Below, piece by piece: positions 55,661 through 56,009 of a stretch of 64,000 bases of DNA (the stretch's first letter is position 1; each line of letters opens with the position of its first letter). The DNA comes from a virus (taxonomy: Duplodnaviria; Caudoviricetes), in the IMG/VR virus record IMGVR_UViG_3300021964_009400, one strand, 5' to 3'. The position numbers were made by a program, and so were the translations under genes. The notes beneath the pieces are model-generated. The model was given only the letters and a program-made list of their open reading frames with translations, was not told the DNA's origin and did not search any database.

Positions 55661-55702
55661 GCCATTGTAGTCTCAGTTTTTTTTCGTATATTAGTCATGT
55701 AA
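55661..55702 (+). promoter_or_regulatory. Conserved phage early promoter (copy 6), driving the putative ncRNA
   Basis: GCCATTGTAGTCTC; 19 nt to TATATTAG; tcaTGTAA; no ORF follows. Confidence 0.8.
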
Positions 55703-56009
55703 TATGATTGATGATTGAGAAAATAGGGTTTGATTCCCTCTCTAGTTAATCGAAAAGACCTCTCCCTTGTAGATATAGGGGGCCGTCAGTAGTGGTTGGG
55801 AGATACACCTACTATAAAAACTGAATCTCTTTTAAAAATAACGGTGTAAGTCTTTATAGGAAATGAAAGATACTCGAGCTACCGTAAATCAGCCATCGGT
55901 TAGGGGTTTCCGATGGTATCAATAGGGTGATTACTCACTCTCTCCTATCCTAAAGTGTTCGTCCGAACCACCCACTAAGTTGTATCACCCTTCTTAGTGG
56001 GTTTTTTTT
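55700..56009 (+). ncRNA. Putative ~300 nt structured non-coding RNA of unknown class
   Basis: Bounded by promoter copy 6 and an intrinsic terminator; at least 6 internal stems (e.g. CCATCGG 55893-55899 / CCGATGG 55910-55916; ACGGT 55841 / ACCGT 55881; ATAGG 55922 / CCTAT 55944); GC-richer than its flanks. Confidence 0.65.
55971..56009 (+). terminator. Rho-independent terminator
   Basis: CCCACTAAG 55971-55979 pairs with CTTAGTGGG 55993-56001, followed by T8. Confidence 0.85.

What the first reader, a model, noticed from the sequence alone, without database searches (positions are those of the whole stretch)
55661..56009. Candidate novel ~300 nt structured RNA with its own early promoter and terminator
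Seen: promoter copy 6 is followed by no ORF but by a run of stems. These are AGGG-TTTGATT-CCCT (55725-55739, T-loop-like); 55757-55787; 55789-55815; a long irregular stem ACGGT/ACCGT (55841-55885) with inner TCTTT/AAAGA; CCATCGG/CCGATGG (55893-55916), whose TTAGGG loop could pair with TCCTAA (55948-55953) as a pseudoknot; ATAGG-GTGA-TTAC-TCAC-CCTAT (55922-55948); then a 9 bp terminator with T8. I cannot match it to tRNA, tmRNA, RNase P, SRP, 6S or common riboswitches or ribozymes. Inference: an abundant early phage ncRNA, possibly a decoy or antitoxin against host defence, or an RNP scaffold.
Basis: partly seen in the sequence, partly recalled or inferred. Interest (0 to 1): 0.85.

Follow-up and report, generated by a model that had tools for sequence, protein, structure and literature searches.

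The report
New modular structured RNA of marine phages
The ORF-free stretch is a real, separately transcribed ~305-nt structured RNA gene that belongs to a large, previously unclassified family of pseudoknot-rich RNAs carried by uncultivated marine and estuarine phages; what the RNA does is still unknown.

Summary
Window 55700-56009 (+) has no ORF. It lies between a Bacteroidota-type promoter (TTG-N19-TATATTAG) and a 9-bp terminator with T8. It matches no Rfam 15 family and no tRNA or tmRNA.

I found more than 120 homologous loci, over 100 of them distinct. Nearly all come from marine or estuarine metagenomes, and some lie on phage contigs of 74-276 kb. Deposited phage genomes hold none.

Covariation supports these helices:
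- P1, with an invariant GAUUGAG/CUCUA internal loop
- the two stems of the window's middle module
- P2
- P3, with an invariant UUAGGGGUUU loop
- the terminator

The "T-loop" is a variable hairpin tip.

The family is modular. The 5' hairpin and the 3' domain are conserved, and the cassettes between them vary; in relatives some are tRNA-like. An 80-aa protein gene of unknown fold accompanies the 3' domain in 56 of 61 loci.

The function is not shown. My best inference is a stable trans-acting RNA that binds a protein or RNP as decoy or scaffold. The same stretch was noted before in an overlapping window of this genome (e1-5362806), not on other DNA.

The parts
55665..55694 (+). Promoter: -33 TTG (55665-55667), 19-nt spacer, -7 box TATATTAG (55687-55694). 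The inferred start is near 55700.
   Evidence: Read. 53 of 56 distinct homologous upstream regions carry TTG/TTA-N19-21-TAnnTTnn 10-20 nt before the GATTGAG box. The box occurs 7 times in the window against 0.34 expected. The start site is inferred, not measured.
55705..55752 (+). P1 hairpin. The stem is 55705-55712 with 55745-55752. It encloses the invariant GATTGAG (55713-55719) and CTCTA (55740-55744). The variable tip hairpin is 55725-55739 (AGGG-TTTGATT-CCCT).
   Evidence: 37 distinct stem versions. Pairs 1-7 are 86-100% paired with 3-6 pair types each. G.U 53 against A.C 5. The tip is absent in L058, L073 and L079 and has other loops elsewhere.
55757..55838 (+). Middle module A, a pseudoknot cassette found in a subset of members. 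A1 hairpin 55757-55787. A2 is 55788-55792 with 55809-55813. GAGAT (55800-55804) pairs with ATCTC (55825-55829).
   Evidence: 15 sequences carry it. A1 covaries: GAC/GTC to GGT/ACC or GGC/GCC, and CTCCC/GGGGG to CAACC/GGTTG or CCTCT/AGAGG. A2 covaries: AGTAG/CTACT to CGTAG/CTACG. GAGAT/ATCTC is invariant, so that pairing is untested.
55841..55885 (+). P2. The outer stem is 55841-55846 with 55880-55885. The inner pairs are 55852-55854 with 55876-55878 and 55858-55859 with 55873-55874. The conserved apical loop GnnATGAAA(T)GATA is 55860-55872.
   Evidence: The outer stem covaries (CGAA/TTCG, CGTT/AACG, CGGT/ACCG, AGTA/TACT, GAGT/ACTC). Inner pair 8-32 is TA 15, CG 7, AT 3. Pair 13-29 is AT 20, TA 5. 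Pair 7-33 is CG 24, GC 1. The loop is invariant in 81 distinct sequences.
55893..55916 (+). P3 hairpin: CCATCGG (55893-55899), loop TTAGGGGTTT (55900-55909), CCGATGG (55910-55916).
   Evidence: 7 of 7 pairs change on both sides across 89 distinct sequences. The loop G's and T's are invariant although they were not part of the search pattern.
55925..55931 (+). 5' strand of the pseudoknot (GGGTGAT). It pairs with 55984-55990 in the terminator loop.
   Evidence: RNAduplex gives cognate pairs -12.96 kcal/mol against permuted pairs -10.21 +/- 0.25 (0 of 5000). The window scores -13.3 against a median of -5.9. Strand classes seen: GGAGACC/GGTCTCC, GGGTGAT/ATCACCC, GGAGGCT/AGCCTCC, GGAGCCA/TGGCTTCC, GGGACT/AGTCTC.
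55938..55968 (+). Conserved linker CTCTCTCCTATCCTAA (55938-55953) and mini-hairpin GTTC-GTCC-GAAC (55957-55968).
   Evidence: Identical in all homologues, but TCTCCTATCCTAA and GAACCACCC were the search pattern, so their invariance is partly by ascertainment. L019, found by another motif, also has them. The divergent L179 keeps only CTCTCCTAT. GTTC/GAAC is 98.6% paired with little variation.
55971..56009 (+). Intrinsic terminator: stem 55971-55979 with 55993-56001, a 13-nt loop holding the pseudoknot 3' strand ATCACCC (55984-55990), and a T8 run (56002-56009).
   Evidence: 97.9% of cells paired, and 4 pairs change on both sides. The next promoter copy follows at 56050.
56729..56971 (+). Gene for an 80-aa protein (KHRNCII..TITKTPKLR..SKEKYVK) that co-occurs with the RNA's 3' domain. 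It is a candidate partner, not a proven one.
   Evidence: Present in 56 of 61 loci with at least 1.3 kb downstream. Present in 3 of 3 phage records with the canonical 3' domain and in 0 of 2 without it. No Pfam or PHROG hit. The AF2 model has pLDDT 89, and no fold match stands out.

Best explanation
Window 55700-56009 (+) is a real non-coding RNA gene of about 305 nt in an uncultivated, low-GC phage that encodes bS21 and uses Bacteroidota-type promoters. The RNA belongs to a large family of modular phage RNAs that no database classifies.

Shown here:
- The family shares a 5' hairpin (P1) with an invariant GAUUGAG/CUCUA internal loop.
- Between P1 and the 3' domain lie zero to several interchangeable cassettes. 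In the window this is an 80-nt pseudoknot module.
- The 3' domain is about 170 nt. It holds P2 with an invariant GnnAUGAAA(U)GAUA loop, P3 with an invariant UUAGGGGUUU loop, a pyrimidine-rich linker, a mini-hairpin, and an intrinsic terminator whose loop is tied back by a 6-9-bp pseudoknot.

Inferred:
- The RNA is made from a strong promoter of the early, host-takeover region and ends at its own terminator.
- The pseudoknot-locked terminator hairpin gives a compact 3' end that resists 3' exonucleases.
- The invariant loops are binding surfaces, so the RNA acts in trans as a stable decoy or scaffold for a conserved partner. The partner would be the co-occurring 80-aa phage protein (about 0.35) and/or a host component of translation or RNA processing (about 0.3).
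- The tRNA-like cassettes that relatives insert at the same place point to the tRNA/translation sphere.
For: No ORF, a promoter and a terminator.

No known family in the window or in 36 related loci.

Homologues: one in IMG/VR by a 19-mer, two more, and at least 120 metagenome loci, all confirmed by nhmmer.

Covariation:
- The 3' domain scores 0.332 against 0.151 for shuffles (0 of 500) and at most 0.13 when partners are slid.
- Pseudoknot: cognate against permuted strands, 0 of 5000.
- P1, P2, module A.

Strand: G.U 53 against A.C 5 in P1.

Conservation: in distant relatives the RNA is 79-87% identical in DNA, the neighbouring 80-aa gene 67-70%, and the other ORFs do not align.

Copy number: the P2 loop motif occurs at one place in each of 5 phage records, with no reversed-pattern hits.

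The 80-aa gene co-occurs with the 3' domain.

tRNA-like cassettes C and D have covarying arms.

Contigs from four metatranscriptome libraries lie on 55677-56008. This is compatible with expression but is no proof of it.
Against: There is no direct evidence of a discrete transcript, of its ends or of its abundance. RNA-library contigs can derive from DNA, and some carry promoter letters.

The function is wholly inferred.
- The 80-aa protein has no recognisable RNA-binding fold, and its link to the RNA is only neighbourhood and co-occurrence.
- The P2 motif also occurs alone on a terminator-like hairpin in other large phages. A divergent member (L179) has another 3' domain. So the modules may work independently rather than as one machine.
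- The invariance of two linker motifs is partly an artefact of the search pattern.
- The single-sequence folding z-score is only -1.87.
Confidence: 0.7

Rival explanations
1. The transcript is a small 'operon' of independent structured RNA modules under one promoter and one terminator. Each module would have its own job. In relatives, the tRNA-like cassettes would serve as RNase P/Z processing signals that release the pieces.
For: Cassettes are shuffled among members. The P2 hairpin exists alone in 173-176-kb phage contigs. L179 combines P1, module B, module D and P2 with another 3' end. tRNA-like modules C and D have acceptor-like and T-like arms.
Against: The window RNA and the minimal ~206-nt forms have no tRNA-like element. 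P1 and the 3' domain nearly always travel together. No processing data exist.
Confidence: 0.15
2. It is an RNA-only self-assembling particle in the manner of GOLLD or ROOL. Those are phage RNAs with a conserved 3' region and a variable 5' region that can carry tRNAs, and they form multimeric cages.
For: The organisation is the same: a conserved 3' domain, a variable upstream part with tRNA-like inserts, several pseudoknots, and a phage origin. The properties of GOLLD and ROOL are taken from PMC12286853.
Against: No Rfam match to GOLLD or ROOL at E up to 10. The RNA is much smaller (206 to more than 450 nt). No self-complementary kissing loop is evident. There are no tRNA genes in this 64-kb window.
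Confidence: 0.08
3. It is a cis-acting leader, attenuator or riboswitch that controls the downstream genes.
For: It ends in a terminator whose loop takes part in an alternative pairing. It lies within a gene cassette.
Against: A full promoter copy follows the terminator (56050). The RNA's position relative to the 'SVGS' gene differs among phages: that gene lies upstream of the RNA in most loci and downstream in the window. There is no conserved alternative (anti-terminator) pairing: the window's GGGTGAT cannot pair with CUCUCC.
Confidence: 0.04
4. It is a DNA-level element (origin, packaging site or operator array), a tiny recoded ORF, or chance complementarity.
For: It lies next to a 1.1-kb non-coding control region with palindromes. 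TAG=Q opens a 79-aa frame.
Against: Compensatory changes keep RNA pairs, including G.U on the + strand only. 1-nt indels occur among homologues. Every other gene reads by code 11.
Confidence: 0.03

Closest known systems
GOLLD and ROOL RNAs (large ornate phage/prophage RNAs)
   Same: They are phage-encoded, stand-alone RNA genes of unknown function with several pseudoknots. [quoted passage not shown] Here too the 3' domain is conserved and the variable part holds tRNA-like cassettes.
   Different: No covariance-model match. The size is a quarter to a half. The terminator is part of the fold. There is no tRNA island nearby in this window. Multimerisation is untested.
tmRNA
   Same: It is rich in pseudoknots. 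Relatives carry a tRNA-like domain in which an acceptor stem and a T-arm flank a long insertion.
   Different: The window RNA has no tRNA-like domain, no CCA end and no tag reading frame. ARAGORN finds nothing. The best Rfam scores are 5.9 and 13.2 bits against cut-offs of 47 and 84.
Type III antitoxin RNAs (ToxI-like) and phage pseudo-ToxI decoys
   Same: They are small pseudoknotted RNAs with a terminator, used in phage-host conflict (from general knowledge).
   Different: There is no array of ~36-nt direct repeats and no toxin endoribonuclease gene next to it.
3'-end protecting RNA folds (viral xrRNAs, ENE triple helices)
   Same: A pseudoknot that locks the terminal hairpin would hinder exonucleases. 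This is an analogy from general knowledge.
   Different: The topology differs, and here it is the 3' end of a bacterial-type intrinsic terminator. Nuclease resistance is not tested.
Catalogue of 10,006 candidate structured RNAs from IMG/VR (PMC10690425)
   Same: It used the same kind of data (IMG/VR contigs) and may list fragments of this family.
   Different: No functional or named description exists there. The supplementary lists are not held, so membership could not be checked.

Membership tests
tRNA / tRNA-like (RF00005) | Cloverleaf with acceptor, D, anticodon and T arms | tested here: not met
   ARAGORN and Rfam find none in the window RNA or in 115 homologous regions.
tRNA / tRNA-like (RF00005) | Conserved T-loop (UUCRANY) in the 55725-55739 hairpin | tested here: not met
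   The window has UUUGAUU. Homologous tips read UUAAAUU, UUCGCUA, GUGAAA or UGACAG, or are absent.
tmRNA (RF00023 and permuted forms) | tRNA-like domain with a CCA end plus a tag ORF | tested here: not met
   ARAGORN finds none. Rfam gives 5.9 bits over the promoter region and a 13.2-bit beta_tmRNA hit on the T-arm only in relative L022.
GOLLD / ROOL | Match to the family covariance model | tested here: not met
   No hit at E up to 10 in the window or L022, and none at gathering score in 36 loci.
GOLLD / ROOL | Homo-oligomeric cage | not testable with these tools
   This needs SEC or cryo-EM.
Type III antitoxin (ToxI-like) | Tandem ~34-36-nt repeats followed by a toxin gene | tested here: not met
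   TRF finds only a 7-nt and a 10-nt micro-repeat. The neighbours have no known family.
Y RNA / YrlA | Rfam match and a Ro/Rsr (TROVE) partner | tested here: inconclusive
   No Rfam match. TROVE is absent from 5 related phage records, 3 of them at least 95% complete. A host-encoded Rsr cannot be excluded.
Box C/D or k-turn RNA | C/D boxes forming a k-turn bound by an L7Ae-type protein | tested here: not met
   snoU31b scores 23 bits against a cut-off of 37, and that match spans the promoter. There is no L7Ae gene in 5 related records.
Riboswitch / cis leader | Sits in the 5' UTR of the regulated gene, with alternative terminator/anti-terminator pairing | tested here: not met
   It has its own terminator followed by a new promoter. 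Gene order differs among relatives.
Intrinsic terminator | G+C-rich stem followed by a U run | tested here: met
   A 9-bp stem, 97.9% paired, with covariation and T8.

The most novel reading that the evidence does not exclude
This is a new class of phage-encoded modular RNA. It has a pseudoknot-locked terminator domain and invariant loops, and in relatives plug-in tRNA-like cassettes. With a dedicated 80-aa phage protein, or alone, it would capture a conserved host machine early in infection of marine Bacteroidota. Candidate targets are the ribosome or bS21 circuit, tRNA-processing or tRNA-targeting defence enzymes, or Ro/Rsr. That would make it an RNA-based host-takeover or anti-defence device with no described counterpart.
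Probability: 0.3. Interest if true: 0.9.

Novelty: categorically new. Interest (0 to 1): 0.8.

Why it matters
Very few phage-encoded structured RNAs with an independent gene are known. The large ones (GOLLD, ROOL) have recently shown unexpected architectures.

This family is abundant in ocean and estuary metagenomes (TARA, GOS and many estuarine sets). In DNA it is better conserved than the neighbouring genes in distant relatives. It also has an unusual build: a terminator hairpin that is an integral, pseudoknotted part of the fold, and a cassette site that accepts pseudoknots or tRNA mimics.

It gives a concrete, synthesisable ~200-300-nt target for structure determination and pull-downs. It could reveal how huge phages of marine Bacteroidota use RNA to take over their hosts or to evade defence.

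Tried and rejected
RNA family and gene searches
- Rfam at gathering and at E up to 10 gave only noise: snoU31b, manA-II, OmrA-B, tmRNA at 5.9 bits.
- ARAGORN found nothing.
- blastn of three family members against 50,697 deposited phage genomes gave no match.

Pattern scans
- The promoter 16-mer in IMG/VR gave 18 single hits, judged to be chance.
- GGGAGATACACCTACT and GGTTAAGGGGTTTTCC gave mostly chance hits, filtered out with nhmmer.
- Genome contigs gave only a 2.3-kb contig of a 'Methanobacteriota' MAG. It is near-identical to the phage contig and is probably mis-binned.
- No whole genome is held for the window, so host genomes could not be searched for a cellular homologue.

Antisense targets
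- Conserved loops scanned against the window gave a few 10-12-mers and no convincing set, with a crude control.

Candidate partners
- No L7Ae and no TROVE gene in related phage records.
- bS21 is present in 3 of 3 near-complete related records, but it is not next to the RNA there, so no specific link is shown.
- The 80-aa neighbour has no Pfam or PHROG hit. Foldseek PDB gives no E below 1, the best VIA Z is 5.0, and the Atlas returns only hypothetical proteins.
- No complex prediction was attempted, because that tool does not take RNA.

Expression
- A second run search (kind rna) listed no RNA holder.
- In the laid RNA-library contigs, the flanking ORFs 55302-55636 and 56173-56708 had no cover. 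This is reported here only and is not used as evidence.

Other
- TAG=Q and code-4 ORFs were rejected.
- A triple helix between the pyrimidine linker and the pseudoknot was considered. The strand polarity and the 3-nt connecting loops argue against it.
- The supplements of PMC10690425 are not held, and the literature text search found none of the family's motifs.

Full report
THE REGION

Window 55641-56028 has no ORF of 30 aa or more on either strand, although the genome is otherwise tightly packed with + strand genes. Upstream lies TTG (55665-55667), a 19-nt spacer and TATATTAG (55687-55694). This is one of seven copies of the box AGCCATTGTAGTCTCA in the window, against 0.34 expected by chance. 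The layout fits the TTG/TAnnTTTG promoter type of Bacteroidota; I take that consensus from general knowledge. Downstream there is a 9-bp G+C-rich stem and T8 (55971-56009), followed by the next promoter copy at 56050. GC is 0.397 against 0.286 for the window. The + strand folds with z = -1.87 (0 of 100 shuffles as good) and the - strand with z = -0.91. Rfam 15 gives nothing at gathering score and only noise at E up to 10. ARAGORN finds no tRNA or tmRNA.

HOMOLOGUES

A 19-mer from the 5' hairpin hit one 276-kb IMG/VR contig, at both of its ends. That copy keeps long blocks and changes both sides of stems. A linker motif then brought in two more phage contigs of 74 and 141 kb.

All of them are true homologues by nhmmer, and 103 of the cores are distinct. 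The records are TARA, GOS (AACY...) and many estuarine or marine sets. Near-identical DNA is held by estuary, marine, salt-marsh and seawater runs from 22 studies.

Deposited phage genomes hold no match. The representative prokaryote genomes hold only one 2.3-kb contig, probably mis-binned. No paper in the library contains the motifs. The only overlap in the literature is a generic catalogue of IMG/VR candidates, which I could not check.

STRUCTURE SUPPORTED BY COVARIATION

On a structure-blind MAFFT alignment of 89 distinct 3' domains:
- P3 has 7 of 7 pairs with changes on both sides.
- The terminator has 4 such pairs.
- The covariation score is 0.332, against 0.151 +/- 0.006 for shuffles (0 of 500) and at most 0.13 when partners are slid.

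The purine-rich segment before the linker pairs with the 3' part of the terminator loop. Observed strand classes are GGAGACC/GGTCTCC, GGGTGAT/ATCACCC (the window), GGAGGCT/AGCCTCC, GGAGCCA/TGGCTTCC, GGGACT/AGTCTC and GAGACTC/GAGTCTC. Cognate strands bind at -12.96 kcal/mol and permuted ones at -10.21 +/- 0.25 (0 of 5000). The window's own pair scores -13.3 against a median of -5.9.

P1 is a 7-8-bp stem with 3-6 pair types per position. It directly flanks the invariant GATTGAG ... CTCTA. Its G.U cells outnumber A.C cells 53 to 5, which fixes the RNA on the + strand.

P2 has a covarying outer stem. Its inner pairs are 8-32 (TA 15, CG 7, AT 3), 13-29 (AT 20, TA 5) and 7-33 (CG 24, GC 1). Its apical loop GnnATGAAA(T)GATA is invariant in 81 distinct sequences.

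The window's middle module (55757-55838) is shared by 15 sequences. Both of its hairpins covary, and an invariant GAGAT/ATCTC pairing would make it an H-type pseudoknot.

- The inner TCTTT/AAAGA stem is not kept. The left side varies against a fixed AAAGA, and those bases pair with CGAGC instead.
- The local ATAGG..CCTAT hairpin is replaced by the pseudoknot with the terminator loop.
- The T-loop-like tip of P1 is a variable extension. It is missing in the closest relative with the same promoter box (L058) and has unrelated loops elsewhere.
- The TTAGG/CCTAA pseudoknot remains possible but untestable. CCTAA was in my pattern. The one divergent member that lacks the P3 loop also lacks CCTAA (L179). 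That is a single case.

FAMILY ARCHITECTURE

Members run from about 206 nt (P1, P2, P3, pseudoknot and terminator, for example L027 and L053) to more than 450 nt. Between P1 and P2 they carry different cassettes:
- Module A, as in the window.
- A second pseudoknot, module B.
- A ~170-nt tRNA-like module C. It has a covarying 7-bp acceptor stem, U8-A9, a long covarying stem that encloses several hairpins, and a canonical T-arm. There are 36 distinct versions.
- A cloverleaf module D with covarying acceptor-, D- and T-like arms but non-tRNA loops.

None of these matches Rfam. The P2 motif also stands alone on a terminator-like hairpin in other phage contigs, including records of 173-176 kb. A 214-kb contig has P1, modules B and D and P2 with a different 3' end. 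The P2 loop motif occurs at one place in each of five phage records, with no hits to the reversed pattern. nhmmer finds one copy in the window. A few metagenome contigs carry two tandem copies.

CONTEXT

The RNA lies in a block of small ORFs that are each preceded by the same promoter. This block follows a 1.1-kb C-rich non-coding region with TGACA-N3-TGTCA palindromes, which earlier notes of this scan had already described.

Recurrent neighbours:
- a 62-72-aa membrane protein (65 loci)
- an 'SVGS..YP' protein (71 loci), which lies upstream of the RNA in most loci but downstream in the window
- an 80-aa protein (window 56729-56971)

The 80-aa gene is present in 56 of 61 loci with enough downstream sequence. 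It is present in all three phage records with the canonical 3' domain and in neither of the two without it. It has no Pfam or PHROG family. Its confident model (pLDDT 89, three strands and two helices) has no match that stands out.

bS21 is encoded at 57165-57356 (Pfam E = 5e-10). It is also encoded in 3 of 3 near-complete related records, but far from the RNA there. In distant relatives only the RNA (79-87% identity), the promoters, the 80-aa gene (67-70%) and a short element behind that gene align at the DNA level. The phage itself is almost without PHROG matches.

EXPRESSION

Contigs assembled from four metatranscriptome libraries (salt marsh, marine, estuary) lie on 55677-56008. The tool warns that DNA can be present in such libraries, and some of these contigs include promoter letters. 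I count this as compatible with expression, not as proof.

WHAT IT MOST LIKELY DOES

Shown: a conserved, strand-specific, pseudoknotted RNA with invariant loops, one gene per genome, behind a consensus promoter.

Inferred:
- It is a stable trans-acting RNA.
- The pseudoknot that ties the terminator loop to the body should protect the 3' end.
- The invariant loops are recognition surfaces: GAUUGAG/CUCUA, GnnAUGAAA(U)GAUA, UUAGGGGUUU and the pyrimidine linker.

I put about 0.65 on a protein- or RNP-binding decoy or scaffold. That splits between an RNP with the 80-aa protein and binding of a host translation or RNA-processing component. I put about 0.15 on a processed multi-RNA precursor, about 0.08 on an RNA-only assembly like GOLLD or ROOL, and little on cis regulation or DNA-level roles.

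The closest analogue in organisation is GOLLD, with its conserved 3' region and a variable 5' region carrying tRNAs. The membership test fails, because the covariance model does not match.

NOVELTY AND LIMITS

No known family or system accommodates this RNA, so as an RNA class it is new. The kind of function is unknown, and that is the main caveat on 'categorically new'. My retrieval used fixed motifs, so the family's diversity is underestimated and the invariance of two motifs is overstated. No host could be searched.

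Noticed in passing
window 56972-57145; L020:2643-2751; L027:2293-2384: A second conserved non-coding element lies directly behind the 80-aa gene. It has an invariant AGGTTTCTTGTAACTG, a GCTCGG..TATCGAG hairpin and a TTTTTT-CCCTAT-GGAAAAAA hairpin.
   Followed up: partly
L077, L112, L128, L145, L160, L022 and others: A tRNA-like module C is inserted in many family members. 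It has a covarying acceptor stem (GGAATAG/CTATTCC, GGTGATTG/CAATTACC), U8-A9, a long stem enclosing 3-4 hairpins with a second GGTTCGAAAC loop, and a canonical T-arm. ARAGORN and Rfam do not call it.
   Followed up: partly
L065:1230-1302, L100, L110, L151, L153, L179: Cloverleaf module D has acceptor GCGGGAG/CTTCCGC, a D-like arm with loop AAGAGA, a 6-bp arm with loop (A/T)TCCA, and a T-like arm with loop GGCAGTT. All arms covary. There is no Rfam match.
   Followed up: partly
L180:700-790(-), L182:555-625 and L181, L183-L185: The P2 motif (TCACAGGYGATGAAATGATACTACG) stands alone on top of a long terminator-like hairpin after a gene in other phage contigs, including records of 173-176 kb. The one whole record searched (G005, 173 kb) encodes bS21 but lacks the 80-aa gene.
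   Followed up: partly
window 54100-55270; L027:1146-1165; L057, L121, L056 after their terminators: TGACA-N3-TGTCA palindromes lie in the C-rich control region of the window. In several relatives the same kind of palindrome lies directly behind the RNA's terminator. It is probably the operator of one regulator of the early region.
   Followed up: no
window 56729-56971: This 80-aa protein family (KHRNCII..TITKTPKLR..SKEKYVK) has a confident model of three strands and two helices and no known relative. It is the best conserved protein of the early cassette.
   Followed up: yes
window 57165-57356; G001:116788-116946; G004:207537-207695; G005:14147-14296: Phage-encoded ribosomal protein bS21 is present in the window and in 3 of 3 near-complete related huge-phage records.
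   Followed up: partly
L124:944-1147 and 1508-1705; L064:3933-4229 and 4346-4442: Some metagenome contigs carry two tandem, diverged copies of the RNA gene.
   Followed up: no
L172 (JABJFP010000298.1): A 2.3-kb contig binned in a 'Methanobacteriota archaeon' MAG carries this phage RNA and the 80-aa gene. It is near-identical to the 276-kb phage contig and is probably a binning error.
   Followed up: no
L019:13850-14511 and L020:1350-2010: The 276-kb IMG/VR contig repeats the same sequence at both ends, with single-base differences. IMG/VR classes it as linear. It may be circular or terminally redundant.
   Followed up: no
window 57805-58847: Two consecutive ORFs both match the N6_N4 DNA methylase family. 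The second (58470-58847) covers only the N-terminal part.
   Followed up: no
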